Assembly: GCA_964556925.1 (NCBI GenBank) | Contig: CAZKXY010000001.1 | Coordinates: 2,790-66,789, forward strand | Direction of reading: 5' to 3' | Length of the DNA: 64,000 bases | Source of the DNA: an uncultured Planctomycetales bacterium | GTDB lineage: Bacteria; Omnitrophota; Gorgyraeia; Aquiviventales; Aquiviventaceae | In this document: piece after piece, positions 1 through 40,139 of the stretch | Layout of the letters: each line of letters opens with the position of its first letter | How positions within the stretch are numbered: position 1 is the stretch's first letter | Translations under genes and position numbers: made by a program | The notes under the pieces: model-generated | What the model saw: the letters and a program-made list of their open reading frames with translations, nothing else | The model's database searches: none | What the model was told of the DNA's origin: nothing

Positions 1-479
1 CCGAGCTGGCCACGGACGAGGCGACGACGGAATCGGTCCTCAAGCATGCGGTGGAGTGGCTCGACGCGCGCGGCTGCCCCATTGACATCGTCGTCTTTTT
101 GCAGCCGACGGATCTCTTTCGCAAGCGCTGGATGATCGAGGACGCCGTGCGGGCCTTGCTGGAGGACCCCGCGCTCGAGTCGGCCTTCGTCGCCACCCTG
201 GATCACAAGAATTACTGGGGCCAGGTCGACGGCCGCTACGTGCCGGTCTCTCATCGCGGCTACCAGCCGCGGCAGCAGAAGCCACCCGTCTATCGCGAGG
301 ACACCGGGTTGGCCTGCGCGACCCGCGCGGCGATCGTGAAACAGGGCCGGCGGATCGGCGACCGCGTGCACCTGCTGGTGAACCGCGACCAGACGTCGTT
401 CATCGACATCCACGGGGAGTTTGACCTCTGGCTGGCCGAGCGGGTGCTGGCCGAGGGCAAGCGGACCATCAATGACTAG
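1..479 (+). CDS. Acylneuraminate/CMP-sugar cytidylyltransferase family protein (NeuA/KdsB-like), C-terminal part; the 5' end lies outside the window (reading frame begins at nt 3)
   Basis: The open frame runs off the 5' edge. The translation (LQPTDLF ... YREDTGL ... VNRD..SFIDIHGEFDLW) resembles the C-terminal half of CMP-NeuAc/CMP-Kdo synthetases. The stop overlaps the next start (ATGACTAG). Confidence 0.6.
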   Translation, partial: ELATDEATTESVLKHAVEWLDARGCPIDIVVFLQPTDLFRKRWMIEDAVRALLEDPALESAFVATLDHKNYWGQVDGRYVPVSHRGYQPRQQKPPVYREDTGLACATRAAIVKQGRRIGDRVHLLVNRDQTSFIDIHGEFDLWLAERVLAEGKRTIND

Positions 480-1476
480 AGCCCATCCCACGCCCCTCGT
501 GTCGATCGTCATCCCCGCCTACAACGAGGCCGAGGTCCTGCCCCGGTTCTACCAGCAGCTCGCTGAGGCGCTCCGGCCCCTCGAGCCGCGCGCGGACTTC
601 GAGCTGTTGGTCGTGAACAACGGCAGCACCGACGGCACGCTGGCGCTGCTCGAGCAGCTGCGCGTCGCGGATGCGCGCCTGAAGATCGCCACCCTCTCCC
701 GCAATTTCGGCTACCAGGCGGCCATCACCGCCGGGCTCACCCTGGCGCGCGGCGACGCCGTGGCCTGCCTCGACGCGGACGGCGAGGATCCGCCGGCGAT
801 CCTCGCCCGGTTCATCGAGACATGGCTGGAGGGCCACGCCGACATCGTCTATGGCATCCGGGGCCGGCGGCCCGAGAGCGCGCTCATGCAGCTGGGACGG
901 CGCGCGTTCTACCGGCTGACCCGCGCGATCGCGGACAGCGAAATCGTCCTCGACATGTCGGAGTTCGGGCTGCTCGACCGCCGCGTGCGCGACGCCGTGC
1001 TGTCCACGCGCTCCACCTTCCCGTTCGTGCGCGCCCAGGTGGGCTACGTCGGCTTCAGGCGGGTGGGCATCCGCTATGACCGCGCGCCTCGCCTCGGCGG
1101 GCGCAGCCACTACACCCTGCGGCGGGCGCTGCGGTTCGGCCTGGCGGGCATCCTGTCTTCGTCCACCTTCCCGCTGCGCCTCCTGGCCTATGGGGGGGCG
1201 TACCTGGTGCCGGCCGGCCTCGCGGGGACGGTCGCCGTCGCCATCCTGGGGCTGCGCCAGGGCGGCCTCGGCGGCCTGGGGTGGCTCGAGCTGGCGCTGG
1301 CGATGCTGCTGCTGTGGCTCGTCTTCAGCGTCGGCGTCCTCGCCGTCTACATCGCCCGGATCTACAAGGACCAGGTGGGGCTCCCGCTCTATATCGTGGA
1401 CCACCAGCGCTCCTCGCTGCTCGATCCTGGAGCGCCCGACCGTGCGGCGTCAGAGCTTCCGGAGGTCTTGGGATGA
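472..1476 (+). CDS. GT2 polyprenol-phosphate glycosyltransferase (ArnC/DPM1-like) with C-terminal transmembrane helices
   Basis: SIVIPAYNEAEVL, DADGEDPP and a C-terminal hydrophobic tail typical of undecaprenyl-phosphate sugar synthases. An internal ATG at 472 overlaps the upstream stop. Confidence 0.75.
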   Translation: MTRAHPTPLVSIVIPAYNEAEVLPRFYQQLAEALRPLEPRADFELLVVNNGSTDGTLALLEQLRVADARLKIATLSRNFGYQAAITAGLTLARGDAVACLDADGEDPPAILARFIETWLEGHADIVYGIRGRRPESALMQLGRRAFYRLTRAIADSEIVLDMSEFGLLDRRVRDAVLSTRSTFPFVRAQVGYVGFRRVGIRYDRAPRLGGRSHYTLRRALRFGLAGILSSSTFPLRLLAYGGAYLVPAGLAGTVAVAILGLRQGGLGGLGWLELALAMLLLWLVFSVGVLAVYIARIYKDQVGLPLYIVDHQRSSLLDPGAPDRAASELPEVLG

Positions 1477-2192
1477 GCCCTGGGACGAGGCCGCGGGGGG
1501 CCATTCGGTGGGTCATCGTTGGGGCGCTGAGCCTCGGCGCGCTGTGGCAGATCGCCACCCTGCCGTCCACGACCCGGCAAGGGGTGAACTCCCGACTCTC
1601 GATTTCCACCCTCCCCCTGTATGTCAAGGTCATCGACTTCCTGCACCGCCACGCGCACTATCAGCTGCTGGCCGAGGCGATCACGCGCGGGTGCCGCTCG
1701 GATGAGGAGCGGGCCCTGGCGATCTTCGCATGGACCCGGCGGAACATCCGTGAGACGCCCAAGGGCTGGCCCGTCATTGATGACCATGTCCTGGACATCA
1801 TCATCCGGGGCTACGGGGCCAACGATCAGATGGCGGACGTCTTCACCACGCTGGCGAGCTACGCCGGCCTGCCCGCGTTTTGGCGGCAGAGGGACGTGGC
1901 CCTCGCATTTGTCCAGACCGAGGGCCGGTGGCGGATGTTCGATGTGCAGTATGGATTGATCTTCACGGACGCCGACGGCCAGCTGGCCGAGGTCAACGCG
2001 CTGCTCGAGGATCCCGCCCTCATCAAGCAGGCGGCCGGATCGCTGACCGTCAATGGCCGCTCCTACGAGCAGTGCGTGGCCCGGATGGGGCCCTTCCGGG
2101 TTCCGGCCGTGCTGCGCGGCCGGCTCCACATGCCGCTGCCCCGATTGCTCTTCGAAGCCAAACGCCTGCTCCATCGCGCACCGGGAGGGTGA
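1473..2192 (+). CDS. Hypothetical membrane-anchored protein, possibly a degenerate transglutaminase-like fold
   Basis: Its ATG overlaps the upstream TGA (ATGA). It has an N-terminal hydrophobic segment (IRWVIVGALSLGALW) and weak similarity to the transglutaminase-like core, but the catalytic Cys is not evident. Confidence 0.4.
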   Translation: MSPGTRPRGAIRWVIVGALSLGALWQIATLPSTTRQGVNSRLSISTLPLYVKVIDFLHRHAHYQLLAEAITRGCRSDEERALAIFAWTRRNIRETPKGWPVIDDHVLDIIIRGYGANDQMADVFTTLASYAGLPAFWRQRDVALAFVQTEGRWRMFDVQYGLIFTDADGQLAEVNALLEDPALIKQAAGSLTVNGRSYEQCVARMGPFRVPAVLRGRLHMPLPRLLFEAKRLLHRAPGG

Positions 2193-3458
2193 ATGGCTGA
2201 GCGGGGGTGGGCGTCGGTGACGGCGATCGGGCTGGCGGTGCTCTCCGCGGAAGGGGCGGCGTACGCCACCTGGCGGCTGGTCGACGGGCCCGACAAGCTC
2301 GCGGTCTACCAGCAGGAGCAAGCGAGCGTGCCGGGATACCGGTACGTCGACTCGCTGGGCCTCGTCATGCCGGAGCCCGGGCGGGAGTTCGTGTGGCAGC
2401 AGTTTGAGTTCGTTGAGCGGTGCCGGACGTCGGCGGTCCCAGGCCTGGAGGCCGGACTGTTCGACGACGGGCTCGACGCCGGGCGGCCGGTCATCGCCCT
2501 GGCGCTCGGCGACTCCATGACCCGCGGGTTCGGCTCGACCGACTGCCTGCGGCTAGGCTGGGTGGAGCGGCTCGAAGCGGCCTTCCCGTGGCTTGACGTC
2601 GTGAACCTCTCGGTCCTGGCGGCCGGGCAGCACCAGGCGTTCCTGGTGTACGACCGGCTGGCGCCGCGCCTTCCGCACGACTGGGTCCTGATCAGCGTCT
2701 TCAGCGGCAATGACTTTCTGGATGACACGGAGCCGTTTGACTGGAACGTGGCGCTCGGGGCGCTGCCCGCCGGGGAGGATCCCACAGCCGCCCTCCGGCA
2801 CGCGAAAGCCGCCGTGCTGTACCGGCCCTCGGACGAGTGGCTGATGGCAAGGCCGGTGCGGTCGTACGCGGCGTGGCTGCTCCTCCGGATCGTGGAGAAG
2901 GTGGCGATGAGGCCCCTGCTCCCCCGGTGGGTTCGGGAGGGACGGGCCATCGAGGACCGCCTGGCCGCCGGCGCGGCCGATCCGCGGATCCCGGAGGCGC
3001 TGCGGCGCCTGGGGGCGGCGCAGCGGGCCAGCGCCAGGACGGTGCAGGCAGGGAACATGTGGTTCACGCTCTACGACTATCAGGGACGCCCGGACGACGC
3101 GGGGCGGCTGGCCCGGCATGCCGCCGGGCTCATCAACGCGTTCGGGGAGCGGCTCCGGGCGGCCGGGGTTCGGGCCGCCGTCGTGCTCCAGCCGAGCAAG
3201 GAGGAAATCTACCTGCCGGCCGGGCTCTCGGCCTCGCTGGGCCTTGCGCTCGACGCGCCGCTCGACGCGCTGCGCGCGGCGCTGGCGACTGGCTTGCCGG
3301 TGTGCGATCTCCGGGGGCCGCTGCGGGCGCAGGCGGGCGCCGGCGGCCCGCCGCTCTACTACGCGCGCGACGGCCACTACACGCCGGCGGGCTACGAGGC
3401 GGCGGCTGAGGCGATCGGGGCCTGCGTGGAGCGGCTGATGGGCCGGGGGTCCCGATGA
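2193..3458 (+). CDS. SGNH/GDSL-family hydrolase (likely polysaccharide O-acetyl esterase/acetyltransferase, AlgX/AlgJ-like)
   Basis: A GDSx block (ALGDSMTRGFG), an SGNDF block and a C-terminal DGHYT (DxxH) block. The start lies immediately after the upstream TGA. Confidence 0.65.
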   Translation: MAERGWASVTAIGLAVLSAEGAAYATWRLVDGPDKLAVYQQEQASVPGYRYVDSLGLVMPEPGREFVWQQFEFVERCRTSAVPGLEAGLFDDGLDAGRPVIALALGDSMTRGFGSTDCLRLGWVERLEAAFPWLDVVNLSVLAAGQHQAFLVYDRLAPRLPHDWVLISVFSGNDFLDDTEPFDWNVALGALPAGEDPTAALRHAKAAVLYRPSDEWLMARPVRSYAAWLLLRIVEKVAMRPLLPRWVREGRAIEDRLAAGAADPRIPEALRRLGAAQRASARTVQAGNMWFTLYDYQGRPDDAGRLARHAAGLINAFGERLRAAGVRAAVVLQPSKEEIYLPAGLSASLGLALDAPLDALRAALATGLPVCDLRGPLRAQAGAGGPPLYYARDGHYTPAGYEAAAEAIGACVERLMGRGSR

Positions 3459-4699
3459 GGCGGGTGACCGCCTGCCCCGCCTGTTCGTCGACGGAGCGCC
3501 GGGCGCTGATGCACGTGGTGAGCCGGGTGGTGCGGGCGGAGGACCAGCTCGTCTATTGCTACTGTGACCGTTGCGGGTTGGTGTATGCGCAAGACGTGAT
3601 CGACACGCGGGCAGAATGCGACGGGACGTACACCGACCCCTATCGCCGGCTGAGCGACGAGCAGATCCTGCGTGACAGCACCGTGTTTCGCCTCAGGAAA
3701 AACCGCTACCGAAAGGCCTGGTTGGACAAGCAGCTTGCCGCGCTCGGCAAGACGTACCCCGCAGGCAAGCAGGCGCTGGAGATCGGGGCGAAGGACGGGT
3801 CATTCCTCTGGCTGCTCAAGCAGGACGGCTGGCAGGTCGCGGGGATCGACCCCAATCGGCGATATGGGGCCTGGGCGCGTCAGCACTATGGCGTGGACAT
3901 CCAGGACGGCTACTTCCAGCCCGGGAGCGTGAGCGGGACCCCGTATGATCTGGTCGCGCTGTTTTGCGTGTTTGAGCACATCGACAACCCCGGCGCCTTC
4001 CTCGGGGCGGTTCGGAGCGCGTTGCGCGAGGGCGGGCTGCTGTATCTCGAAACGGACAACCTGGCGTACCTGCAACAGCGACAATTGATCCCGATGCATC
4101 CCATCCTGTATTCCCGCCAGACGCTGACGCAGGTGCTGGCGCGCCACGGCTTCAGGATTCTGGCGATGACGGAGAACGCCCCTGGCGGGGCCATGGTATT
4201 TGACCAGTTGGCGGTCTTGGCGGAGGTCGCCGAGGGGCCAGCTCCGCTCACGTGCCAGCCGGCCGAGGACTTCGCGACGGCCAAGCGGATGCTGGAGCGC
4301 GCCCTGAGCGACGATTTTCCGTCTCCCACGCCGACAGGCACGAATCGGCTGTTTCGCGCGGTGAGCCGCGTGCTGGGTGAACGGCTGGCGTCTCTCCTGA
4401 AGGCGGGGTACGTGAGCGTCCGGGGGATGGGCAACCGCCGGCGCCTCGCCACGCGGGAATCCGCCGACGGACAGCCCACGTCCCGCCGATTCCCCGAGCC
4501 GATCCGTGACGCGTTCCTTCAGGGATCCCTGACGGCATCTCACCTGGAGGAACTGGCCAAGCTCGACGACGAGTGTGTGCAGTTGAAGATCTTGGCTCGG
4601 ATCAGGGCGTACCGGCTGTCTGCGGAGGCGACCCGTCAGCTGGTTGAACGCGAACGCGCCCACGACTGCCACGGCATCGAACAGGCGATCGTCTCATGA
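3455..4699 (+). CDS. Class I SAM-dependent methyltransferase with an N-terminal Cys4 zinc ribbon (sugar C-/O-methyltransferase-like, TylCIII-type architecture)
   Basis: CPAC...CDRC zinc ribbon, then LEIGAKDGSFLWLL (SAM-binding motif I) and DLVALFCVFEHIDNP. ATGA overlap with the upstream gene. Confidence 0.7.
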   Translation: MRRVTACPACSSTERRALMHVVSRVVRAEDQLVYCYCDRCGLVYAQDVIDTRAECDGTYTDPYRRLSDEQILRDSTVFRLRKNRYRKAWLDKQLAALGKTYPAGKQALEIGAKDGSFLWLLKQDGWQVAGIDPNRRYGAWARQHYGVDIQDGYFQPGSVSGTPYDLVALFCVFEHIDNPGAFLGAVRSALREGGLLYLETDNLAYLQQRQLIPMHPILYSRQTLTQVLARHGFRILAMTENAPGGAMVFDQLAVLAEVAEGPAPLTCQPAEDFATAKRMLERALSDDFPSPTPTGTNRLFRAVSRVLGERLASLLKAGYVSVRGMGNRRRLATRESADGQPTSRRFPEPIRDAFLQGSLTASHLEELAKLDDECVQLKILARIRAYRLSAEATRQLVERERAHDCHGIEQAIVS

Positions 4700-6588: not shown

Positions 6589-6599
6589 GGATCCCCGCG

Positions 6600-9151: not shown

Positions 9152-9154
9152 GCG

Positions 9155-11352: not shown

Positions 11353-11357
11353 GGGCG

Positions 11358-15154: not shown

Positions 15155-15180
15155 CATTTGTTCCGCACCCACCTGTCGCT

Positions 15181-15240
15181 CAGGGCTCAGGGCTCGGGGC
15201 TCAGGGTCCTTGCCCCCAGCCCCCAGCCCAGAGCCTCGAG
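15181..15240. repeat. Family-C GGGCTCA-heptad hairpin repeat, copy C1 (downstream of the tri-domain gene)
   Basis: CAGGGCTCAGGGCTCGGGGCTCAGGGTCCTTGCCCCCAGCCCCCAGCCCAGAGCCTCGAGC. The left arm is GGGCTCN heptads and the right arm is their approximate reverse complement. Confidence 0.65.
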
Positions 15241-15249
15241 CGCCGTTCT

Positions 15250-28491: not shown

Positions 28492-28492
28492 A

Positions 28493-28537
28493 CAGGTGTC
28501 AGACACCTTTCAAGGCGGGAAAAGTGTCTGACACCTG
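28493..28537. repeat. Family-A element, copy A3 (short spacer)
   Basis: CAGGTGTCAGACACCTTTCAAGGCGGGAAAAGTGTCTGACACCTG. Confidence 0.85.
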
Positions 28538-28616
28538 TGCGGCGGACTGGCCGCGCGTCGTCCGCAAATTCGGTCAGGCCGATGGGTGCACGATCGAGCG
28601 TCTGGGCCAGGACCAG

Positions 28617-29669: not shown

Positions 29670-29678
29670 GCGGTGCGC

Positions 29679-29738
29679 ATGAGCCGCGTGCTGGTGACGG
29701 GCGGGGCGGGGTTCACCCCGCCCCGCCTCCCAAGATGA
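29679..29738 (+). other. Leader mini-ORF MSRVLVTGGAGFTPPRLPR (19 codons) ending in an ATGA overlap with the downstream epimerase start
   Basis: Read directly from the sequence. The peptide duplicates the N-terminus of the downstream protein (MRVLVTGGAGFIGSHL). It also contains the hairpin GGGCGGGGCGGGGTTCACCCCGCCCCGCC. Confidence 0.4.
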
Positions 29739-32009: not shown

Positions 32010-32142
32010 CCCCACTACCTGGGCGTGGGCCGGGTCGACGATACGGGGCGTCCGCGACCGACCCGGCCCGGGGTCGCGGCGTCTGGCTGACAACTGTGTG
32101 GGCGACCCGCCCCGCCGCAGGCGGGGCCGCCCAGGTAGTGGG
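32010..32142. promoter_or_regulatory. Structured 133-nt spacer bounded by a perfect 12-bp long-range inverted repeat, upstream of the dual-domain GT2 gene
   Basis: CCACTACCTGGG (32012-32023) / CCCAGGTAGTGG (32128-32139). Inner hairpins: CGCGACCGACCCGG/CCGGGGTCGCG, and GCCCCGCC-gca-GGCGGGGC immediately before the start codon. Confidence 0.45.
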
Positions 32143-34894: not shown

Positions 34895-36419
34895 GCGGTC
34901 GCGGCCGGACTGGGTCATCGCCGGGCTCTTCGCCCTGGCCGGCCTCCTGCTCCTCGCCAACCTGGAGAACGGCTTGCTGTGGCAGGACGAGGCGGAAACG
35001 GCGCTGCTGGCCCGTCACGTCTTGCGCTTCGGCTACCCTCGGGCGTTCGACGGCCGCCATTGGCTTGAGCTGGCCGGCTACGGCTTTGGGCCCGGGGAGG
35101 CCTGGATCTACAGCCCCTGGCTGCCGTTCTATCTGCTCGCCGGCGTGTTTGCGCTGGCGGGCGAGGCGACCTGGATCGCCCGGCTGCCCTTCGCCCTGTG
35201 CGGGCTGGCCACGGTCTGGCTCACCTGGCGGCTGGCCTGTCGCCTGACGCCCGATGCGCGGATCCAGCGCCTCAGCGTGGCGCTGCTCGCCTGCTCGGTG
35301 CCGTTCCTGCTGCACATGCGGCAGTGCCGCTACTACGCCATGGCGACGGCGCTGTTGACCGCCGTCTGCCTCGCCTACCTGAACTTCCTCGCGCGCCCGT
35401 CCCTCCGCCGGGCCGCGGCCCTGACGCTGAGCCTGGTGCTGTTGTTTCACACGAACTTCGGGACGTTCCTGCCCGCGCTCGCCGCGCTGTTCCTCCATCA
35501 GGCCGTCTGGGGCACCCGGCAGACCAGCCGCCCCTTCCTCTGGAGCCTGGGGCTGGTCGTGCTGGTGACGTTTCCCTGGGCCCTGTACTTCTATCAGCCC
35601 GCCTTCCTTGGGGAGCTGTCGCCTGCGCGGGTATACCGGCATCTCGAATACTACGTGCGGATCACCAACAAGTACCTGATGCCGCTGGCGGCGATGGCGG
35701 CGACGTCGCTCGGCTTCCTCCTCTGGCGCGGGCGGGCCGCGTCCCTGCGGGCCGTCCCCTCCACCCCGCCCTTAAGGGCGGGGTCCACCCTGCCGCCTTC
35801 GATCCGCTGGTGGCTCATCCTGCTGGTGGGGCTGCAGGTGGCGTTCCTGACGCTGCCGGACCAGCGGCATATGCGCTACCTCATCCCGGCGCTGCCCGTG
35901 TTGGTGATCGCCGAGGCCTGGTGGCTGGCGTCCCTGGGGTTGCGCAACGGTCGGCGATCCCTCGGATGGGTGCTGGTGGCGCTGGCCGTGCTCACGAACG
36001 CCTTGCAAGCGGTGCCGCCGTCCATCCCCCTGCTGGATCTTGCGGAGGAGCTCACCCATCCGTACATCGGGCCGATGGAGGGCGTGGTGGGGTATCTGCG
36101 CGCCCACGGACGGCCCGGCCAGGTGGTGAAGATCCCCTACGATGACCGGACCCTGATCTTTTACACGGACCTGACGATCCAGCGTCCCTCAGAATTCCTG
36201 CGGGAGACCTACCCCGATTGGGTGGTCATCCGGCGCGGCTGGACCCCGGCCCACTTTTTCAAGTCCGCGCAGTACCGCCGGCTTGAAGCCACGTACGAGC
36301 GGATTGACTTGGATGCGCCGGACGCCTTTTGGCAGAACCGGGAGGACCCGGGCTTGCATCACTTCCGGCGGGCGTGGTGGCCCCCGCCCGTCCTCATGTT
36401 CCGGAAGCGGGTGGGATGA
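34887..36419 (+). CDS. GT-C fold glycosyltransferase of the ArnT/PMT (GT39/GT83) family
   Basis: LLWQDEAETALLARHVLRFGYP (first-loop DE motif) and about 11 predicted TM helices. Confidence 0.65.
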   Translation: MRERSRPDWVIAGLFALAGLLLLANLENGLLWQDEAETALLARHVLRFGYPRAFDGRHWLELAGYGFGPGEAWIYSPWLPFYLLAGVFALAGEATWIARLPFALCGLATVWLTWRLACRLTPDARIQRLSVALLACSVPFLLHMRQCRYYAMATALLTAVCLAYLNFLARPSLRRAAALTLSLVLLFHTNFGTFLPALAALFLHQAVWGTRQTSRPFLWSLGLVVLVTFPWALYFYQPAFLGELSPARVYRHLEYYVRITNKYLMPLAAMAATSLGFLLWRGRAASLRAVPSTPPLRAGSTLPPSIRWWLILLVGLQVAFLTLPDQRHMRYLIPALPVLVIAEAWWLASLGLRNGRRSLGWVLVALAVLTNALQAVPPSIPLLDLAEELTHPYIGPMEGVVGYLRAHGRPGQVVKIPYDDRTLIFYTDLTIQRPSEFLRETYPDWVVIRRGWTPAHFFKSAQYRRLEATYERIDLDAPDAFWQNREDPGLHHFRRAWWPPPVLMFRKRVG

Positions 36420-37150
36420 CCGCCAGGCCGCAGCTGTCCGTCGTCATCCCGGTCTACAACGAGGCCGACGTGCTCCGCCAGACGGTGCGGGAGGTGGCGG
36501 CGTACCTGACCGCGTCGCAGCTTGCCCACGAGATCCTCTTGGTGGATGACGGCTCAACCGACGGGACGCCGGCGATCGCCCGGCAGCTGGCGCGCGATCT
36601 GCCCGGGGTCCGCCTCATCCAGGCGTCGCACCAGGGCAAAGGGGCGGCGGTCAAGCGGGGCGCGCTGGACGCCGTCGGCGCCTGGGTGCTGTTCATGGAT
36701 GCGGACCACTCCACCCGGATCGAGGAGCTCCGGAAGTGCCTGCCGGGCCTGACGGACGGCTTCGAGGTTGTGATCGGCTCGCGCAAGATTCCAGGTGCCG
36801 ACGTGCGCGTCCATCAGCCGGCGCTGCGCGAAGCGATGGGCAAGGTCTTCACCTGGCTGACCAACACGCTCCTAGGCACGCGGGTCTCCGACATCACCTG
36901 CGGCTTTAAGTGCTTCCAGGCCGACGCGGCCCGGCGGATTTTCTCCCTCCAGCGGTTGACCGGCTGGGGGTTCGACGCGGAGATTTTGTTTATCGCGCGG
37001 CGCTTGGGTCTTCGGATCACCGAGGTGCCGGTGGTCTGGCAGGATCACGCCTCCACCAAGGTGCGGCTGGTCAAGGACGCGGTAGGCTCGTGCCTCGAGC
37101 TCGTCCGGATCCGCCTCGGCGCCTGGCGCGGCCACTACGCGGAGCCGTGA
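36416..37150 (+). CDS. GT2 polyprenol-phosphate sugar synthase (DPM1/dolichyl-phosphate glucosyltransferase-like)
   Basis: LSVVIPVYNEADVL, LLVDDGSTDGT, FMDADHS. ATGA overlap with the upstream GT-C gene. Confidence 0.75.
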   Translation: MTARPQLSVVIPVYNEADVLRQTVREVAAYLTASQLAHEILLVDDGSTDGTPAIARQLARDLPGVRLIQASHQGKGAAVKRGALDAVGAWVLFMDADHSTRIEELRKCLPGLTDGFEVVIGSRKIPGADVRVHQPALREAMGKVFTWLTNTLLGTRVSDITCGFKCFQADAARRIFSLQRLTGWGFDAEILFIARRLGLRITEVPVVWQDHASTKVRLVKDAVGSCLELVRIRLGAWRGHYAEP

Positions 37151-37154
37151 GGCC

Positions 37155-37958
37155 ATGCAGAAGCTGGCGCGAAAGATCCTGCGGGCGGTTGCGGATTACG
37201 ACCCGGACTATTACGATATGTATGCGGACCCGAACGAGGCCGCGTTTGCCACGCTCTATCTCACGCGGATTACGCGTCATGCCGAGGCGGCCGGCATCCG
37301 CCCGCCCGCCCGCGTGCTGGAAGCCGGCTGCCAGGCCGGGCGGCTCGTGGTGCCGCTGGCCAAGCTGGGCTTTGACGTCACCGGGATCGACACGTCAGGG
37401 TTTGCGCTGCGGCGCGCCGCGGCCCATGCCACAGCGGCCGGGGTGGACGCGGCCTGGCTCAAGGGAGACCTGGTGGACGTGTTAGCCGGCGCGGCGCCGG
37501 AGCAGTACGACCTCGTCATCTGCGCGGAGGTGGTCTACCTCAGCCCGCAGTACCGCGAGATGCTGCGGGTCCTGGCGCGCGCGGCGCGGCCGGGCGGGCT
37601 GCTCTGCGTGTCGCACCGGCCCCTGTGGTACTACCTCATCGAAGCGCTCCGGGCGCAGGATCGCGAGGCCGCGGCGGACGTGCTGCGGCGGCGCGAGGGG
37701 CCCTTTCGAGAGACCCGGTACGTGAACTGGCAGACGGAGGAGGAGCTGCGCAGCCTGTACGCGTCGTTGGGCGTGGCGTGGCTGGGGTGCTACCCGATCG
37801 ACCGGCTGGCGTGGTTGACGCAGACCGACCTGTCGCAGCTCTCGGCGGCCGAGCGGGCGGCGTGGCTCGAGCAGGAACTGACGCTGGCCGCTGAGGCCGC
37901 GACCTGCGCTCGGTACGCGCTGGTCGTGGCGCAGAAACCGCATGGGGCTGGGGGATGA
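37155..37958 (+). CDS. Class I SAM-dependent methyltransferase
   Basis: VLEAGCQAGRLVVPLA (motif I) and DLVICAEVVYL. Confidence 0.65.
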   Translation: MQKLARKILRAVADYDPDYYDMYADPNEAAFATLYLTRITRHAEAAGIRPPARVLEAGCQAGRLVVPLAKLGFDVTGIDTSGFALRRAAAHATAAGVDAAWLKGDLVDVLAGAAPEQYDLVICAEVVYLSPQYREMLRVLARAARPGGLLCVSHRPLWYYLIEALRAQDREAAADVLRRREGPFRETRYVNWQTEEELRSLYASLGVAWLGCYPIDRLAWLTQTDLSQLSAAERAAWLEQELTLAAEAATCARYALVVAQKPHGAGG

Positions 37959-38277
37959 TCCACCACCTGCCGCTGGCGGCGCACAGGCCGAGCGCGCCGC
38001 CGACGTGTACCTGATGCAGAGCCGTCTGGATGGTAGCTTCGACGTCGGGTGGACGACGGATCCTGTGCGCCGCCTGGTTGAGCACAACGCCGGCGGCTCC
38101 CGCTGGACCAGCCACAAGCGCCCCTGGCGGCTCCTGGGCGTCGAGCGGCAGCCGACCAGGGACGCCGCCAAGCGGTACGAGCGCACGCTGAAGCGGAGCC
38201 CCCACAAACTGGCGATCTTCAAGAAGCGGGTGCTCAACCGGGCGGCCAATGGCCGCCCGCGGCAGGTTGTGGGATGA
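37942..38277 (+). CDS. GIY-YIG nuclease-family protein (UPF0213/YhbQ-like)
   Basis: VYLMQSRLDGSFDVGWTTD...RRLVEHN...W...L.R is a GIY-YIG core. Overlaps both neighbouring genes. Confidence 0.55.
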   Translation: MGLGDDPPPAAGGAQAERAADVYLMQSRLDGSFDVGWTTDPVRRLVEHNAGGSRWTSHKRPWRLLGVERQPTRDAAKRYERTLKRSPHKLAIFKKRVLNRAANGRPRQVVG

Positions 38278-38984
38278 GCCGCTGGCGCTACCACCTGCCG
38301 ATTCTGGGCTACCATCGCGTGGGGCCGTTTCGCCCCGATCACGTGCCGACCGTCTCCGCGGAGGCCTTTGCACGGCAGCTGCGCTGGCTGACGCGCTGGG
38401 GCTACCAGGTGGTGAGCCTGGATGAGGTGGTGGCGCGCCTCGAGCGCCGGCAGCCGCTGCCGAGGCGCCGCACGGTCATTACGTTCGACGACGGCTATGA
38501 AGAAACCTGCTCAATCGCCTGGCCCCTCCTCAAGCGCTTCGGCATGACGGCGACGGTCTTCGTGACGCCCAACGAAGTCGGCTTGCCGGGATTCGCGACC
38601 TGGGACCAGCTGCAGGCCCTGGCCCGCGGCGGCATCACCATCGGCAGCCACACGTTGCACCACTGCTATCTGCCGCTCGTGGAGGCCCATCGCCTGCCGG
38701 ACGAGATCGCCGGCTCGAAACGCGTCTTGGAGGACCGGCTGCAGCAGCCCGTCCAGTACCTCAGCTATCCGGTGGGCGGATTTAACCCCAGGGTCCAGGC
38801 GTTGGTCCAGGAGGCCGGCTACCGGGCCGCCTGCACGACAAACCGCGCCGAGCCGCGCAACGGCCTGGATCGGTTCGCGCTGCGCCGGATCAAGGTGAAC
38901 GAGCAGGATGCGAATCCGGTTCGGCTCCTGGCCAAACTGTCCGGCTACTACGATCTCTTCCGACGGGTGAACGCGCCCGCATAG
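38274..38984 (+). CDS. Polysaccharide deacetylase (NodB/CE4)
   Basis: ITFDDGY, SHTLHH and LSYPVG motifs. Confidence 0.75.
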   Translation: MSRWRYHLPILGYHRVGPFRPDHVPTVSAEAFARQLRWLTRWGYQVVSLDEVVARLERRQPLPRRRTVITFDDGYEETCSIAWPLLKRFGMTATVFVTPNEVGLPGFATWDQLQALARGGITIGSHTLHHCYLPLVEAHRLPDEIAGSKRVLEDRLQQPVQYLSYPVGGFNPRVQALVQEAGYRAACTTNRAEPRNGLDRFALRRIKVNEQDANPVRLLAKLSGYYDLFRRVNAPA

Positions 38985-39008
38985 GCGGCGGCTGCCATCG
39001 CGATTCGT

Positions 39009-40139
39009 GTGCTGATCGGCTACGTGACGGCGGGCACGGGGCACCGCCGGGCCGCCGAGGCGCTGGCCCAGGCGGTGCGCGCCCGCGACCCGCAGGCCGA
39101 GGTGGCGTGCCTCGATGTGCTCGCCGACGCGCCGGGCCGGTTCGCGGCGTTCTACGACCGCACCTACCTCCTCATGGTGCGGCATCTCTCCGGGGTCTGG
39201 AAGCTCAGCTACGGCCTGTTGGATCAGCCGTGGGTCTACCGCCTGGTCCAACCGCTGCGGCGGCGATGGAACCGCTGGATTGCCCGCCGGTTCATTGACC
39301 GGGTGAAGGCCTGGCGGCCGGACGTCGTCCTGGCCACCCATTTTTTGCCCGCGGATCTCTGCAACACGGGCCGGGCGGGGGGCTGGCTGAGCGCCCCGCT
39401 GGTCGTCGTCGTGACCGATTGGCATCCCCACCGGTTTTGGCTCGCGCCGGCGGCGGACGCGATGGTCGTCAGCACGGCCCACGCGGCGGCCGTGCTGGAG
39501 CGCCGCGGCATCGCCCGCGATCGGATCCGGGTCGTCGGCATTCCGATCGGCCGGGCGTTCCTCCAGCCTCCAGCCCCCGCGGCGCTGCGCCGGCGGTTTG
39601 CTCTTCAACCGGGCCGGCAGACGGTGCTGGTGACCAGCGGGGGCACCACCGTCGGGCAATTTGCGCGCGTCGTGCGCGCGCTGGCCGAGCTCGAGCGGGT
39701 GATCCCCGGCCGGCTGCAGCTCGTGGTGGTCTGCGGGGAAGACCATGCCATGCAGCGACGGTTGGGGCGGTTCGCGCAGACGTGCGCCATGCCCATGCGC
39801 GTGTTCGACTTCGTCGACTTCATGGCGGAGCTGATGGCCGTGAGCGATCTCGCGGTGGCGAAAGCCGGCGGGCTGACGGTGAGCGAGGCGTTGAGCTGCG
39901 GGTTGCCGCTGGTGCTGTATCACGTCATCCCGGGGCAGGAACGGTTGAACGCGGCGTACGTCGAGCGGCACGGGGCGGCGCGCATCGCGCGGGGACCGGG
40001 CGAGGTGGCGGCGAGGGTTCGCGAGCTGATCGGACAGCCCACACGGCTGGCGGCCATGCGAGCCGCGGCCCGTACCCTGAGCCATCCGGATGCGGCCGCG
40101 CGGATCATCAGCGAGATCGTGGAGCCGCTCGCGCGATGA
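39009..40139 (+). CDS. GT28-family glycosyltransferase (MGDG-synthase / MurG-like diacylglycerol or lipid glycosyltransferase)
   Basis: The N-terminal GTGHRRAAEAL and overall colinearity with monogalactosyldiacylglycerol synthase/UgtP-type proteins. Confidence 0.6.
   Translation: MLIGYVTAGTGHRRAAEALAQAVRARDPQAEVACLDVLADAPGRFAAFYDRTYLLMVRHLSGVWKLSYGLLDQPWVYRLVQPLRRRWNRWIARRFIDRVKAWRPDVVLATHFLPADLCNTGRAGGWLSAPLVVVVTDWHPHRFWLAPAADAMVVSTAHAAAVLERRGIARDRIRVVGIPIGRAFLQPPAPAALRRRFALQPGRQTVLVTSGGTTVGQFARVVRALAELERVIPGRLQLVVVCGEDHAMQRRLGRFAQTCAMPMRVFDFVDFMAELMAVSDLAVAKAGGLTVSEALSCGLPLVLYHVIPGQERLNAAYVERHGAARIARGPGEVAARVRELIGQPTRLAAMRAAARTLSHPDAAARIISEIVEPLAR

What the first reader, a model, noticed from the sequence alone, without database searches (positions are those of the whole stretch)
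1..40139. 40-kb single-strand glycan/lipoglycan assembly supercluster with pervasive ATGA translational coupling
About 38 consecutive + strand genes encode a near-complete toolkit. It covers nucleotide-sugar tailoring: SDR epimerase/reductases, a DegT aminotransferase, GNAT, two NeuA-like cytidylyltransferases, and four SAM methyltransferases including a Zn-ribbon C-methyltransferase-like one. It covers lipid-carrier initiation: a WecA/MraY family enzyme fused to a CapD-like domain, plus two ArnC/DPM1-like polyprenol-P sugar synthases. It covers 10 or more GT-A/GT-B transferases (GT2, GT4, GT9 x2, GT28, CgeB-like), a GT-C ArnT/PMT-like transferase, two Wzy_C/O-antigen-ligase-like proteins and an MsbA-like exporter. 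Remodelling enzymes (two CE4 deacetylases, an SGNH esterase) are also present. At least 20 gene junctions are overlapping stop-start pairs (ATGA, TGATG, ATGACTAG). The mix of heptosyltransferases, GT-C/PMT-type, MGDG-synthase-like and methyltransferases does not match a textbook O-antigen, capsule or LPS-core locus. It suggests a heavily methylated/acetylated glycoconjugate, possibly a glycolipid or protein O-glycan.
Basis: partly seen in the sequence, partly recalled or inferred. Interest (0 to 1): 0.55.

Follow-up and report, generated by a model that had tools for sequence, protein, structure and literature searches.

The report
Giant surface-glycan operon of an Omnitrophota bacterium
This is a real gene cluster of about 46 kb and 40 genes, all on one strand, that builds a cell-envelope glycan in an uncultivated groundwater Omnitrophota bacterium; most of it is an ordinary kind of locus, but one end holds an undescribed sugar-acid pathway that includes a nickel-dependent LarA-type enzyme.

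Summary
Window 1-40139 carries 35 consecutive + strand genes. Thirty-two of them have glycan-related Pfam domains. Twenty-five of the 34 junctions overlap, 16 of them as ATGA/GTGA, and ATGA at stop codons is far above chance (P~1e-21).

The source is a 70% GC Candidatus Omnitrophota metagenome contig. The locus runs at least 6 kb further upstream, off the window, and ends at udg-priA.

The locus is modular. A backbone is syntenic in four related MAGs: GT4::DUF218, methyltransferases, GT4-SDR-PNPT::CoA_binding_3-Wzy_C-GT9-GT9, GT2s, and MT-CE4-GT28. Accessory modules are inserted into it.

No protein inside the window's cluster reaches an NCBIfam equivalog cut-off, so the product cannot be named. 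There is no Wzx, Wzz, Wzm/Wzt or WaaA. The best reading is assembly on a polyprenyl carrier, flipping by an MsbA/PglK-type ABC exporter, ligase-type transfer, and Arn-like periplasmic decoration.

The 5' module pairs a LarA homologue, with all five key LarA residues intact, with two cytidylyltransferases, a DAHP-synthase paralogue (KPLTF instead of KPRTS) and a shikimate-dehydrogenase-like gene. This gene set recurs in unrelated contigs. Elsewhere the LarA domain is fused to a cytidylyltransferase next to NeuB.

The parts
3..479 (+). g1: the 3' part of cytidylyltransferase CT1. The full 233-aa gene lies at contig/L001 7730-8431.
   Evidence: CTP_transf_3 on the full gene. PseF-like at 137 bits against a cut-off of 205.7.
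472..1476 (+). g2: GT2 with two C-terminal TM segments, resembling a polyprenyl-phosphate sugar synthase (GtrB/ArnC/PgfS-like).
   Evidence: Pfam. NCBIfam PgfS 171 bits (cut-off 500) and ArnC 104 bits (cut-off 529). TM segments.
1473..2192 (+). g3: transglutaminase-core-like protein with an N-terminal hydrophobic segment.
   Evidence: Transglut_core 25.2 bits.
2193..3458 (+). g4: SGNH/GDSL plus AlgX-like domain with an N-terminal anchor. Probably an O-acetyl transferase or esterase outside the cytoplasm.
3455..4699 (+). g5: SAM methyltransferase with an N-terminal CxxC...CxxC motif.
   Evidence: Methyltransf_23 70.8 bits. N-terminal sequence.
4696..6588 (+). g6: 630-aa protein from a rare family with no Pfam, NCBIfam or PDB match. 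Inferred to be the transferase for the CMP-activated acid sugar.
   Evidence: Only 4 close homologues and 197 representatives among 1.84 billion. Distant members P0287, P0297 and P0306 carry a fused CTP_transf_3 domain. The AF2 model is poor (pLDDT 58). Most of the top-ranked Foldseek hits are GT-B folds, but E is at least 0.007.
6585..8426 (+). g7: fused TMD-NBD ABC exporter of the MsbA/PglK/HepA type. Candidate flippase for a lipid-linked glycan.
   Evidence: ABC_membrane plus ABC_tran. HepA family 511 bits (cut-off 725), MsbA 407 (602), PglK 256 (1000).
8423..9151 (+). g8: cytidylyltransferase CT2.
   Evidence: CTP_transf_3 75 bits. 55% identical to the cytidylyltransferases next to LarA homologues in L087, L090 and L099.
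9155..10438 (+). g9: LarA-family protein, a predicted nickel-pincer-nucleotide (NPN) enzyme.
   Evidence: Lar_N 166.9 bits. R75, H108, H174, K184 and H200 of LarA1 are all conserved (residue roles from PMC11770544). Homologues are fused to CTP_transf_3.
10435..11352 (+). g10: RmlD-like SDR reductase.
   Evidence: RmlD_sub_bind 164 bits. rmlD 166 bits against a cut-off of 224.
11349..12392 (+). g11: CgeB-like GT-B glycosyltransferase.
   Evidence: Glyco_trans_1_2 121 bits and DUF3880.
12389..15154 (+). g12: 921-aa fusion of methyltransferase, GT4 and DUF218 (backbone gene).
   Evidence: 76% identical over 66% of its length to L085. GT4::DUF218 fusions occur in L085, L171 and L172.
15145..15930 (+). 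g13: GT2, like DPM1/PpgS.
15927..16685 (+). g14: SAM methyltransferase (backbone gene).
   Evidence: 62% identical to L085.
16682..17989 (+). g15: Wzy_C membrane protein, a ligase or polymerase type.
   Evidence: Wzy_C 34.8 bits. 54% identical to L085.
17983..18798 (+). g16: CE4 deacetylase without a signal peptide.
   Evidence: Polysacc_deac_1 87 bits. N-terminus.
18795..20006 (+). g17: GT4 (backbone gene).
   Evidence: 59-62% identical in relatives.
20035..21108 (+). g18: SDR 4,6-dehydratase or decarboxylase type (backbone gene).
   Evidence: Epimerase 187 bits. 81-84% identical in relatives. LegB-like 178 bits (cut-off 475), ArnA C-terminal-like 129 bits.
21105..22952 (+). g19: WecA/MraY-family polyprenyl-phosphate N-acetylhexosamine-1-phosphate transferase (PNPT), fused to a C-terminal region like the WbaP N-terminus (4 TM plus CoA_binding_3). 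This is the initiating enzyme (backbone gene).
   Evidence: Glycos_transf_4 118 bits and CoA_binding_3 37 bits. NCBIfam. The 119 listed homologue clusters other than the query's own are 61-74% identical with the same architecture; the source-named ones are called Candidatus Omnitrophica.
22939..24171 (+). g20: Wzy_C O-antigen-ligase-like protein (backbone gene).
   Evidence: Wzy_C 68.5 bits. Directly follows the PNPT in L084, L085, L171 and L172.
24200..25207 (+). g21: GT9 (backbone gene).
   Evidence: Glyco_transf_9 122.6 bits. Below the HepI-III cut-offs.
25204..26313 (+). g22: GT9 (backbone gene).
   Evidence: Glyco_transf_9 105.8 bits. 69% identical in relatives.
26313..27425 (+). g23: DegT/PseC/ArnB-type sugar aminotransferase.
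   Evidence: DegT 388 bits. PseC 241 bits (cut-off 423).
27637..28491 (+). g24: GT-A-like protein with no Pfam hit and a DGDE motif. The start could instead be 27475 or 27334.
   Evidence: No family hit. Sequence. 47% identical orthologue in JACPSR010000142.
28488..29669 (+). g25: GNAT acetyltransferase. Its N-terminus overlaps a hairpin element, so the true start may lie further downstream.
   Evidence: Acetyltransf_1 45.5 bits. Hairpin element at 28495-28535.
29735..30853 (+). g26: SDR epimerase or dehydratase.
   Evidence: Epimerase 181 bits.
30846..32009 (+). g27: GT2 (backbone gene).
   Evidence: 67% identical in relatives.
32098..34005 (+). g28: protein with two GT2 domains. The start could instead be 31915.
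   Evidence: Two Glycos_transf_2 stretches.
33992..34894 (+). g29: GT2 (backbone gene, often duplicated in relatives).
34887..36419 (+). g30: GT-C (PMT_2, ArnT-like) with at least 7 TM segments. Accessory gene.
   Evidence: PMT_2 31.4 bits against a cut-off of 26.1. No homologue detected in any fetched locus (tblastn). A PMT_2 plus GT2 pair sits at another position in L172.
36416..37150 (+). g31: soluble GT2 like DPM1/AglJ, paired with g30.
37155..37958 (+). g32: SAM methyltransferase (conserved 3' trio).
   Evidence: 60-69% identical in L004, L006, L007 and L008.
37942..38277 (+). g33: small GIY-YIG protein inserted into the trio.
   Evidence: GIY-YIG 35.3 bits. Absent between the MT and CE4 genes in the four relatives.
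38274..38984 (+). g34: CE4 deacetylase without a signal peptide (conserved 3' trio).
   Evidence: 58-64% identical in relatives.
39009..40139 (+). g35: MGDG-synthase/UgtP-like GT28 (conserved 3' trio). Last gene of the locus.
   Evidence: MGDG_synth 85 bits and Glyco_tran_28_C 57.6 bits. Diglucosyl-DAG synthase 185 bits against a cut-off of 500. udg-priA follow.

Best explanation
What it is. Window 1-40139 is the larger part of a locus of about 46 kb and 39-40 genes that assembles an envelope glycoconjugate. It belongs to a 70% GC groundwater Candidatus Omnitrophota bacterium. The locus starts at or before position 1845 of the 77-kb source contig, which is 6.1 kb upstream of the window, and ends just before udg-priA-def-fmt. 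It consists of a lineage-conserved backbone with accessory modules inserted into it.

Backbone (shown by synteny; function inferred).
- g18, g23 and g25 (SDR, DegT aminotransferase, GNAT) tailor a UDP-HexNAc-type sugar.
- g19, a WecA/MraY-type transferase fused to a region like the WbaP N-terminus, starts the chain on a polyprenyl phosphate.
- GT4, GT2 and GT9 enzymes extend the chain at the cytoplasmic face, and methyltransferases modify it.
- Wzy_C proteins (g20, g15) transfer the finished unit to its acceptor outside the cytoplasmic membrane.
- There is no Wzx, Wzz, Wzm/Wzt or clear polymerase system. The only exporter is g7, an MsbA/PglK-type ABC half-transporter. The most likely route is therefore en-bloc assembly, ABC flipping, then ligation. 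This resembles the Helicobacter WecA-Wzk-WaaL route, with lipid A-core as the most probable acceptor.
- The conserved terminal trio MT-CE4-GT28 probably makes or modifies a diacylglycerol-type glycolipid.

Accessory modules (inferred).
(a) An Arn-like decoration route. A polyprenyl-phosphate amino-sugar is made by a GT2 (g31, g2 or g13), de-N-acylated by a cytoplasmic CE4, and transferred in the periplasm by the GT-C g30.
(b) A 5' module for an activated acidic sugar. It comprises a DAHP-synthase paralogue with an altered aldose site, a shikimate-dehydrogenase-like oxidoreductase, two cytidylyltransferases, an intact LarA-type NPN epimerase (g9) and an RmlD-like reductase. g6 is the probable transferase.

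Expression. The pervasive ATGA overlaps, together with short relay ORFs, tie translation of successive genes together along most of the locus.
For: Gene content. Coupling statistics. Relay mini-ORFs at 20003-20038 and 29687-29738.

Taxon. PriA is 60-68% identical to four Omnitrophota MAGs (a fifth close hit is labelled Planctomycetales). The g19 homologues that carry a source name are called Candidatus Omnitrophica.

Backbone synteny.
- MT-CE4-GT28-(udg)-priA is present in L004, L006, L007 and L008 at 56-69% identity.
- GT4-SDR-PNPT::CoA_binding_3-Wzy_C-GT9-GT9 occurs in the same order in L084, L085, L171 and L172.
- L084 and L006 overlap on one contig, which places the PNPT 19 kb upstream of priA. 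In the window the distance is 20 kb.

Absences. No MOP flippase, ABC-2 pair, Wzz or WaaA domain appears in any gene of the locus.

Exporter class.

Arn-like logic. The window has PMT_2 next to a GT2, plus CE4, DegT and GNAT. L172 carries a Formyl_trans_N::CE4 fusion together with PMT_2 and GT2.

The 5' module.
- All five key LarA residues are conserved in g9.
- CTP_transf_3::Lar_N fusions exist at about 50% identity.
- The same gene set (DAHPS-like 63-75%, SDH-like 40-49%, GT2-like 63%, CT 55%, LarA 53-55% identical) occurs in L087 (52.6% GC) and L090 (64.3% GC).
- In a metagenome scan, all 16 LarA-like loci at 46% identity or more with usable upstream flank have a cytidylyltransferase directly upstream or fused, and 12 also have NeuB. 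Only 1 of 63 loci at 45% identity or less does.
- The DAHPS paralogue has KPLTF where the canonical enzymes aligned have KPRTS. The L087 homologue shares this change.
- Distant members of the g6 family are fused to CTP_transf_3.
Against: - No protein inside the window's cluster reaches an NCBIfam equivalog cut-off. Only the off-window DAHP-synthase paralogue passes an NCBIfam cut-off. Every enzymatic step is therefore a family-level inference.
- The acceptor is unknown. No lpx, kds or waaA genes lie in the 64-kb window.
- The ABC exporter g7 and the whole 5' module were not found in the sampled regions of relatives. The flipping step of the conserved backbone is therefore not accounted for in those genomes.
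- GT9 enzymes normally act on Kdo-lipid A and not on polyprenyl-linked glycans. Their position next to the PNPT fits the en-bloc model poorly.
- No larB, larC or larE genes for NPN cofactor synthesis lie on the contig or next to the homologues examined.
- The DAHPS paralogue still scores above NCBI's DAHP-synthase cut-offs.
- Operon structure is inferred from sequence only. Three very stable hairpin elements lie inside the locus.
- The source is a single metagenome contig.
Confidence: 0.6

Rival explanations
1. It is a general protein O-glycosylation system. The polyprenyl-linked oligosaccharide is flipped and then transferred to Ser/Thr of envelope or S-layer proteins. The transfer is done by the Wzy_C proteins acting as PglL/PilO-type O-oligosaccharyltransferases, or by the PMT_2 GT-C.
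For: There are two Wzy_C proteins and a PMT_2 protein. g20's second NCBIfam hit is 'putative O-glycosylation ligase' (36 bits). An acidic terminal sugar module and methylation are typical of Tannerella-type O-glycans (own knowledge; NulO literature listed). No lipid A genes lie nearby.
Against: WaaL, PglL and Wzy cannot be told apart by sequence, and all hits are far below the family cut-offs. The two GT9 genes that always follow the ligase gene point to an LPS-core-like acceptor. No target protein or glycosylation motif can be tested.
Confidence: 0.2
2. It is not one system. Several independent glycan loci (LPS-core-like, glycolipid, amino-sugar decoration, acidic-sugar module) have collected at one chromosomal hotspot upstream of priA. 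They make separate products.
For: The backbone is conserved while the 5' 20 kb, g30-g31 and g33 are absent from the sampled parts of relatives. The MT-CE4-GT28 trio is conserved on its own next to priA. Hairpin elements sit at module borders at 21055, 27523 and 28495. Truncated duplicates of SDR N-termini in front of g18 and g26 look like recombination scars. Variable polysaccharide cassettes are reported in Omnitrophota.
Against: The stop-start coupling runs unbroken across module borders. There is only one initiating transferase and one exporter for the whole locus. This explanation is largely compatible with the best one; the difference is whether the modules feed one product.
Confidence: 0.35
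3. The DAHP-synthase and shikimate-dehydrogenase genes upstream are ordinary aromatic amino-acid genes, and g9 is an ordinary hydroxy-acid (malate or lactate) racemase. All three lie beside the glycan genes by chance.
For: The DAHPS scores above the NCBIfam cut-offs (349 bits against 335; 304.6 against 267.75). g9's best family hits are malate racemases. All characterised LarA homologues act on free 2-hydroxy acids (PMC7583248, PMC11770544).
Against: The same genes lie side by side in two other organisms with different GC content. The CT::LarA fusions and the 16-of-16 against 1-of-63 adjacency split argue against chance. The KPRTS motif is changed to KPLTF in both paralogues that could be read. 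In L087 the cassette is flanked by IS1595 transposases and no other aro genes are seen there.
Confidence: 0.2

Closest known systems
Helicobacter pylori LPS O-antigen route (WecA initiation, Wzk ABC flippase of the PglK type, WaaL ligase); own knowledge, Hug et al. 2010
   Same: WecA-family initiation. No Wzx, Wzy or Wzz. A single fused TMD-NBD ABC exporter of the MsbA/PglK class. A Wzy_C ligase-type protein.
   Different: The PNPT carries an extra region like the WbaP N-terminus. There are two Wzy_C proteins. The exporter is closer to HepA/MsbA models than to PglK and is not conserved in relatives. All genes lie in one locus here, whereas they are scattered in Helicobacter.
Enterobacterial waa (LPS core) loci with WaaC, WaaF, WaaQ and WaaL
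   Same: Two GT9 genes lie directly beside a Wzy_C ligase-type gene, and this is conserved across the lineage.
   Different: The GT9 proteins score below the HepI-III cut-offs. There are no WaaA, ADP-heptose or kinase genes. The GT9 genes sit beside a polyprenyl-phosphate initiating transferase.
Arn (PmrHFIJKLM) aminoarabinose modification of lipid A
   Same: The window has an aminotransferase (DegT), an ArnA-C-like SDR, an ArnC-like GT2, a CE4 (the ArnD family) and a PMT_2/ArnT-like GT-C. A relative carries a formyltransferase::CE4 fusion.
   Different: There is no formyltransferase in this locus; a GNAT may replace it. There is no ArnE/F. All scores are far below the equivalog cut-offs.
Nonulosonic-acid and Kdo modules (NeuB/KdsA synthase plus NeuA/KdsB/PseF cytidylyltransferase)
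   Same: A PEP-condensing enzyme of the DAHPS/KDO8PS family plus CTP_transf_3 enzymes. In other organisms the same LarA subfamily sits next to NeuB.
   Different: The synthase here is a type I-beta DAHPS paralogue with KPLTF in place of KPRTS. There are two cytidylyltransferases, a shikimate-dehydrogenase-like enzyme and a LarA-type enzyme. None of these belongs to any described Neu, Leg, Pse or Kdo pathway.
[quoted passage not shown]
   Same: Full-length Lar_N protein with R75, H108, H174, K184 and H200 conserved.
   Different: It scores below every characterised subgroup cut-off (best 236 bits against 500). It is embedded in, and in other organisms fused to, nucleotide-sugar machinery. The two LarA papers searched make no mention of cytidylyltransferases, and one of them none of polysaccharide or glycosyl genes.
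Hypervariable O-antigen/capsule cassette of Omnitrophota (bioRxiv 10.64898/2026.05.20.726742)
   Same: Same phylum. A large locus with an O-antigen ligase, heptosyltransferase, exporter, acetyltransferase and many GTs, variable between strains.
   Different: That cassette is about 26 kb and includes Wzc/Etk and AlgI/AlgJ. Those are absent here, and this locus is about 46 kb. No LarA or DAHPS module is mentioned in the passages read.
UgtP/YpfP and MGDG-synthase glycolipid synthases (GT28)
   Same: g35 has MGDG_synth plus Glyco_tran_28_C, and its best NCBIfam hit is diglucosyl-DAG synthase.
   Different: 185 bits against a cut-off of 500. It is always paired with a CE4 and a methyltransferase next to priA.

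Membership tests
Wzx/Wzy-dependent O-antigen or capsule locus | MOP-family Wzx flippase | tested here: not met
   No Polysacc_synt or MOP domain in any of the 35 window genes or the 6 upstream genes.
Wzx/Wzy-dependent O-antigen or capsule locus | Wzy polymerase together with a Wzz/PCP chain-length regulator | tested here: inconclusive
   Two Wzy_C proteins are present but cannot be assigned as polymerase or ligase. No Wzz, Wzc or Wza domain was found.
Wzx/Wzy-dependent O-antigen or capsule locus | Initiating polyprenyl-phosphate sugar-phosphate transferase | tested here: met
   g19 Glycos_transf_4, 118 bits.
ABC-transporter-dependent (Wzm/Wzt) polysaccharide locus | Separate ABC-2 permease and ATPase pair | tested here: not met
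   The only exporter is the fused ABC_membrane+ABC_tran protein g7.
En-bloc route with a PglK/Wzk-type flippase and a WaaL ligase | WecA-family initiation, an MsbA/PglK-class half-transporter and a Wzy_C ligase in one system | tested here: met
   Met at domain level only: g19, g7 and g20. PglK equivalog 256 bits against a cut-off of 1000, so it is not an orthologue.
En-bloc route with a PglK/Wzk-type flippase and a WaaL ligase | Transfer to lipid A-core | not testable with these tools
   This needs biochemistry or a full genome. No lpx, kds or waaA genes lie in the window.
LPS inner-core heptosyltransferases (WaaC/WaaF/WaaQ, GT9) | GT9 fold | tested here: met
   Glyco_transf_9 122.6 and 105.8 bits.
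LPS inner-core heptosyltransferases (WaaC/WaaF/WaaQ, GT9) | Equivalog-level match, and ADP-heptose and Kdo genes in the same context | tested here: not met
   Best scores are 100 and 119 bits against 170 (HepIII), and 93 and 97 against 134.6 (HepII). No GmhA, HldE or WaaA in the locus.
Arn (Ara4N) pathway | ArnT-type GT-C with an ArnC-type GT2 and an ArnD-type CE4 | tested here: met
   Met at domain level: PMT_2 31.4 bits (cut-off 26.1), GT2 and CE4.
Arn (Ara4N) pathway | ArnA formyltransferase, the ArnE/F flippase, and equivalog scores for ArnB and ArnC | tested here: not met
   No Formyl_trans domain in the locus. ArnB 196 bits against 631; ArnC 104 bits against 529.
LarA / NPN-dependent racemase-epimerase superfamily (g9) | Lar_N domain with both catalytic histidines, the cofactor-tethering Lys, the Ni-ligand His and the phosphate-binding Arg | tested here: met
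   Lar_N 166.9 bits. Alignment to 6c1w/5huq shows R, H109, H173, K183 and H199 aligned to R75, H108, H174, K184 and H200. The four His/Lys positions are invariant in the 13-sequence subfamily alignment.
LarA / NPN-dependent racemase-epimerase superfamily (g9) | Membership of a characterised substrate subgroup | tested here: not met
   Best is LarAH6 malate racemase, 236 bits against a cut-off of 500.
LarA / NPN-dependent racemase-epimerase superfamily (g9) | larB/larC/larE cofactor synthesis genes in the same genome | not testable with these tools
   They are absent from the 77-kb contig and from the neighbourhoods examined. The rest of the genome is not available.
Nonulosonic-acid biosynthesis cluster | NeuB-family synthase | tested here: not met
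   No NeuB domain on this contig. Only a degenerate NeuB/SAF-like N-terminus on the upstream GT2. NeuB is present in the sister loci L086, L090 and L091.
Nonulosonic-acid biosynthesis cluster | CMP-sugar synthetase (CTP_transf_3) | tested here: met
   Two copies. Both are below the PseF cut-off, at 137 and 113 bits against 205.7.
Type I-beta DAHP synthase (upstream gene, L001 1845-2738) | Overall family score and the metal/PEP-binding motifs | tested here: met
   NF006421 349 bits against 335. TIGR01361 304.6 against 267.75. GPCAVE, QIGARN, LLKR and DPSH are conserved.
Type I-beta DAHP synthase (upstream gene, L001 1845-2738) | KPR(T/S) motif, which binds the phosphate of erythrose-4-phosphate (role from own knowledge) | tested here: not met
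   KPLTF plus a 3-residue insertion, where the A. pernix and P. furiosus enzymes have KPRTSPY. The same change occurs in the L087 paralogue.

The most novel reading that the evidence does not exclude
The 5' module encodes an undescribed route to a cytidylyl-activated 3-deoxy-ulosonic acid or a derived acid. In this organism the acid is probably seven-carbon and is made by a neofunctionalised DAHP-synthase paralogue; in other organisms NeuB takes that role. A LarA-family nickel-pincer enzyme carries out an epimerisation or redox-isomerisation step. The uncharacterised g6 family is the matching transferase. If so, this would be the first NPN-dependent enzyme in glycan biosynthesis. It might also explain rare ulosonic-acid epimers or heptulosaric-type sugars whose biosynthesis is, to my knowledge, unknown.
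Probability: 0.35. Interest if true: 0.75.

Novelty: new variant of a known kind. Interest (0 to 1): 0.42.

Why it matters
Taken as a whole, the locus is one more large surface-glycan cluster. Its main value is as a description of the conserved envelope-glycan backbone of a high-GC Omnitrophota lineage. These are ultra-small, uncultivated, possibly host-dependent bacteria whose surface chemistry is unknown.

The part with wider reach is the recurrent link between a LarA-type nickel enzyme and cytidylyltransferases and PEP-condensing synthases. The link is both by fusion and by adjacency. It yields a testable hypothesis that widens the known chemistry of the nickel-pincer cofactor from free hydroxy acids to activated sugar acids. 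It also provides candidate genes for orphan ulosonic-acid sugars.

The DAHP-synthase paralogue with an altered substrate motif is a warning for automatic annotation of aromatic amino-acid pathways in MAGs.

Tried and rejected
- GTDB genome scan with g6: 39 pattern matches but no true relative. The family is rare.
- Rfam at gathering threshold, tRNA scan and promoter scan: no RNA family, no tRNA, and no sigma-70-like site inside the locus. The terminator-like hits lie inside coding regions and were not pursued.
- PDB sequence searches for g24, the upstream 771-aa membrane protein and g30: nothing.
- Literature on the DAHPS KPR(S/T) motif: not found in the library. The motif's role rests on my own knowledge.
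- Searches for LarA together with cytidylyltransferase or nonulosonic-acid terms: one paper contains both 'lactate racemase' and 'cytidylyltransferase', in unrelated passages, and none links LarA to cytidylyltransferases or nonulosonic acids.
- Initial reading that the upstream DAHPS and SDH genes are housekeeping and mark the 5' border: rejected after the same set was found in L087 and L090.
- 'CapD-like' fusion on g19: rejected, because there is no Polysacc_synt_2 domain.
- Idea that the close LarA homologues would all be Omnitrophota: rejected. Their loci have 30-64% GC, and homologues at 45% identity or less (Thaumarchaeota and others) have unrelated contexts.
- Cluster-member look-up for taxon names gave no taxon names.

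Full report
**1. Observation**

The window is about 70% GC throughout, so raw ORF lists are full of spurious frames. I called genes from codon-position GC and a sliding frame plot and placed starts relative to the preceding stop codons.

From base 1 to 40139 there is an unbroken chain of 35 + strand genes. That is 34 complete genes plus the 3' part of one gene cut by the window edge. The only credible - strand gene in the whole window is a TPR protein at 43492-44148.

The per-gene assignments are in the parts table.

Downstream of 40139 the genes are housekeeping: udg, priA, def, fmt, two GalT-like genes, gap, pgk, tpi, secG, an Opp-type transporter, glgC-like, thiG and leuB-like. The 3' border is therefore sharp.

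**2. Coupling**

Twenty-five of the 34 junctions overlap. Sixteen of these are 4-nt ATGA or GTGA overlaps, and 28 junctions have a gap of 10 nt or less.

A statistic that does not depend on my choice of start codons supports this. Nineteen of 29 TGA stops are preceded by A, although A makes up only 3.3% of third codon positions. The binomial P is about 1e-21.

In the remaining 24 kb of the window only 6 of 19 junctions overlap. The feature is therefore enriched in the locus, though not unique to it.

Several apparent gaps are bridged by short ORFs:
- The ATGA at the g17 stop opens an 11-codon ORF (MKALMTGGAAR). Its own stop forms ATGA with the g18 start (MKALITGGAGF...).
- A 19-codon ORF (MSRVLVTGGAGFTPPRLPR) does the same in front of g26.
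- Both short ORFs are truncated copies of SDR N-termini. They look like recombination scars that also keep ribosomes coupled.

**3. Source and extent**

An exact-protein look-up places the window on JGI contig Ga0212128_10000030 (77,124 bp). Window base 1 is contig base 7953.

Upstream of the window lie:
- a GFO_IDH_MocA oxidoreductase
- a DAHP_synth_1 protein
- a Shikimate_dh_N protein
- a 469-aa GT2
- a 771-aa polytopic membrane protein with no domain hit
- the full cytidylyltransferase whose tail is g1

PriA is 60-68% identical to five groundwater MAGs of 65-70% GC, four of them labelled Candidatus Omnitrophota and one labelled Planctomycetales. The next-best phyla are at 51% identity or less. 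The g19 homologues that carry a source name are called Candidatus Omnitrophica.

**4. Conserved backbone and accessory modules**

In four relatives (L004, L006, L007, L008) the order MT-CE4-GT28-(udg)-priA is conserved at 56-69% protein identity. Upstream of it lies a variable set of GT2 genes.

g19 has 119 listed homologue clusters other than the query's own, at 61-74% identity, all with the same Glycos_transf_4 + CoA_binding_3 architecture.

Four of their genomic contexts (L084, L085, L171, L172) show the same order: GT4 - SDR - PNPT::CoA_binding_3 - Wzy_C - GT9 - GT9. This block is usually followed by DegT, GNAT and SDR genes and then GT2 genes. It is preceded by GT4::DUF218 fusions, methyltransferases and a second Wzy_C-like protein.

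L084 and L006 overlap on one contig. That puts the PNPT 19 kb upstream of priA, compared with 20 kb in the window.

The following were not found in the sampled regions of relatives:
- the whole 5' part of the locus, from the upstream genes through g11 and including the ABC exporter
- g13, g25, g30-g31 (GT-C plus GT2) and g33 (GIY-YIG)

A PMT_2 + GT2 pair occurs at a different position in L172, next to a Formyl_trans_N::CE4 fusion.

The 'supercluster' is therefore a lineage-conserved backbone at a fixed chromosomal site, with accessory modules around and inside it. This agrees with a 2026 preprint that describes hypervariable O-antigen/capsule cassettes in Omnitrophota.

**5. What the locus is not, and what it works like**

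NCBIfam gives family-level hits only. No protein inside the window's cluster reaches an equivalog cut-off.

There is no MOP flippase, no Wzz/Wzc/Wza, no ABC-2 pair, no WaaA, no ADP-heptose genes and no NeuB.

What the locus does have is:
- one initiating WecA/MraY-type transferase
- many cytoplasmic GT-A and GT-B enzymes and methyltransferases
- one MsbA/PglK/HepA-class half-transporter (HepA family 511 bits against a cut-off of 725; MsbA 407 against 602; PglK 256 against 1000)
- two Wzy_C proteins
- polyprenyl-phosphate sugar synthase-like GT2 enzymes with a GT-C
- two CE4 enzymes without signal peptides
- one membrane-anchored SGNH/AlgX protein

The most economical mechanism is en-bloc assembly on a polyprenyl carrier, ABC-type flipping, ligase-type transfer, and periplasmic decoration. 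This is the logic of the Helicobacter WecA-Wzk-WaaL route combined with an Arn-like side route, a comparison that rests on my own knowledge.

The acceptor is not determined. The constant pairing of the ligase gene with two GT9 genes favours a lipid A-core-like acceptor. Protein O-glycosylation remains a serious rival.

The conserved MT-CE4-GT28 trio, whose GT28 is most like diglucosyl-diacylglycerol synthases (185 bits against a cut-off of 500), may make a separate glycolipid.

**6.

*The LarA homologue.* g9 is a full-length LarA homologue (Lar_N, 166.9 bits). Alignment to L. plantarum LarA (6c1w/5huq) shows that all five key residues are conserved: Arg75, His108, His174, Lys184 and His200 (residue roles from PMC11770544). 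It scores below every characterised subgroup (best 236 bits against 500).

*Fusions.* Its nearest homologues outside this lineage (48-50% identity) are 658-674-aa fusions of CTP_transf_3 with Lar_N. In L086 such a fusion directly follows NeuB inside a glycan cluster.

*Recurrence of the gene set.* Two other contigs carry the same genes as this one:

| Gene | Identity to this contig | Found in |
|---|---|---|
| DAHP_synth_1 | 63-75% | L087, L090 |
| Shikimate_dh_N | 40-49% | L087, L090 |
| small GT2-like domain | 63% | L090 |
| cytidylyltransferase (g8 type) | 55% | L087, L090 |
| LarA homologue | 53-55% | L087, L090 |
| second cytidylyltransferase | 34-40% | L087, L090 |

L087 has 52.6% GC and L090 has 64.3% GC. 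In L087 the set is flanked by IS1595 transposases.

*Metagenome scan.* A scan with a subfamily alignment returned 80 loci.
- All 16 loci at 46% identity or more with usable upstream sequence have a cytidylyltransferase directly upstream or fused.
- Twelve of those also have a NeuB homologue.
- Only 1 of 63 loci at 45% identity or less has either.

One of these loci (L091) continues into GDP-heptose-type genes and a GT2.

*The DAHP-synthase paralogue.* It keeps the metal- and PEP-binding motifs but has KPLTF plus a three-residue insertion where the canonical enzymes have KPRTSPY. From my own knowledge, that motif binds the phosphate of erythrose-4-phosphate. The L087 paralogue shares the change.

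*g6.* This 630-aa protein has no domain hit and belongs to a rare family (197 representatives among 1.84 billion). Longer members of that family carry a C-terminal CTP_transf_3 domain. Its weak structural model ranks GT-B enzymes first, without significance.

*Inference.* Taken together, the fusions, the adjacency and the altered substrate motif argue that the upstream 'aro-like' genes are not housekeeping. They suggest that the 5' module makes and transfers a cytidylyl-activated acidic sugar by a route that includes a nickel-pincer enzyme. The chemistry is inferred and not shown. No larBCE genes are on the contig. The two LarA papers I searched, and the nonulosonic-acid papers returned by the literature searches, contain no such association. 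Heptulosaric acid is known in Rhizobiaceae LPS cores (reference cited in PMC5713287). This shows that seven-carbon ulosonic-type sugars exist in bacterial glycans.

**7. Verdict**

As a whole the locus is a new, very large and very tightly coupled example of a known kind of system, with a lineage-specific backbone. Its 5' module is a plausible new variant of ulosonic-acid biosynthesis.

I give overall interest of 0.42. The novel reading has a probability of about 0.35 and would deserve about 0.75 if true.

Noticed in passing
window 21055-21095, 27523-27576, 28495-28535, 41231-41271, 44137-44177, 47798-47838, 51395-51448, 53090-53143, 55863-55916: A REP-like hairpin element occurs in nine copies, all in the same orientation, each just upstream of or at a + strand gene start. 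There is a short form (AGGTGTCAGACACCTTTCAAAGCGGGAAAAGTGTCTGACACCT) and a long form of about 60 nt. The 13-mer core gives 17 matches against 0.04 expected. Predicted RNA hairpins have -28 to -38 kcal/mol (z -6 to -9). None occurs in the 172 other loci fetched, including the Omnitrophota relatives. Three copies lie inside the glycan locus, and some are translated into gene ends (g18 C-terminus, g25 N-terminus, udg C-terminus).
   Followed up: partly
window 20003-20038 and 29687-29738: Two mini-ORFs (MKALMTGGAAR and MSRVLVTGGAGFTPPRLPR) are truncated copies of the N-termini of the SDR genes that follow them (g18, g26). The first is joined to its neighbours by ATGA overlaps at both ends, the second only to the g26 start. 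They are probably recombination scars at the conserved Rossmann motif that also relay translational coupling. ATGA at the stops of g23 and g27 likewise opens 76- and 46-codon ORFs that bridge the gaps to g24 and g28.
   Followed up: partly
window 37942-38277: A 111-aa GIY-YIG protein is inserted, with overlapping stop-start pairs on both sides, between the methyltransferase and CE4 genes of the conserved 3' trio. It is absent at this position in four relatives. It may be a selfish nuclease gene riding in the operon.
   Followed up: partly
L001 1845-3905 (contig upstream of the window); also L087 4990-7254 and L090 2-2670: A DAHP-synthase paralogue (KPLTF instead of KPRTS) and a 370-aa shikimate-dehydrogenase-like protein (VTVPYK and NTD catalytic motifs kept; the first Ser of the HSxSP carboxylate-binding motif replaced) travel with the LarA/cytidylyltransferase genes. 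Automatic annotation would call them aroF and aroE.
   Followed up: partly
L095, L097, L100, L101, L103, L104, L107 (30-32% GC) and L086 (41% GC): A conserved block occurs in low-GC marine metagenome contigs: AP_endonuc_2 - NeuB - CTP_transf_3::LarA fusion - GT4 - GT4 - SDR - PIG-L - methyltransferase - class I LysRS. The organism was not identified.
   Followed up: partly
window 21105-22952 and its listed homologue clusters (119 besides the query's own): A WecA/MraY-type transferase with 13 TM segments in total, fused to the region found at the N-terminus of WbaP/WcaJ (4 TM plus CoA_binding_3), appears to be a hallmark of this Omnitrophota lineage. The function of the extra domain is unknown.
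   Followed up: partly
L172 1-823: A relative encodes a 622-aa Formyl_trans_N::Polysacc_deac_1 fusion (ArnA-N-like plus ArnD-like) beside a GT4::DUF218 fusion, a PMT_2 GT-C and a GT2. This is an Arn-like module with an unusual fusion.
   Followed up: no
window 59485-62904: A 1139-aa protein combines a spermine/spermidine-synthase domain with many TPR repeats.
   Followed up: no
window 45649-47752: Two tandem paralogous GalT/HIT-like (galactose-1-phosphate uridylyltransferase family) genes lie between fmt and gap.
   Followed up: no
L001 5308-7623: A 771-aa polytopic membrane protein with a C-terminal soluble domain has no Pfam, NCBIfam or PDB sequence match. It sits between the GT2 and the first cytidylyltransferase and may be an unrecognised GT-C-like transferase.
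   Followed up: partly
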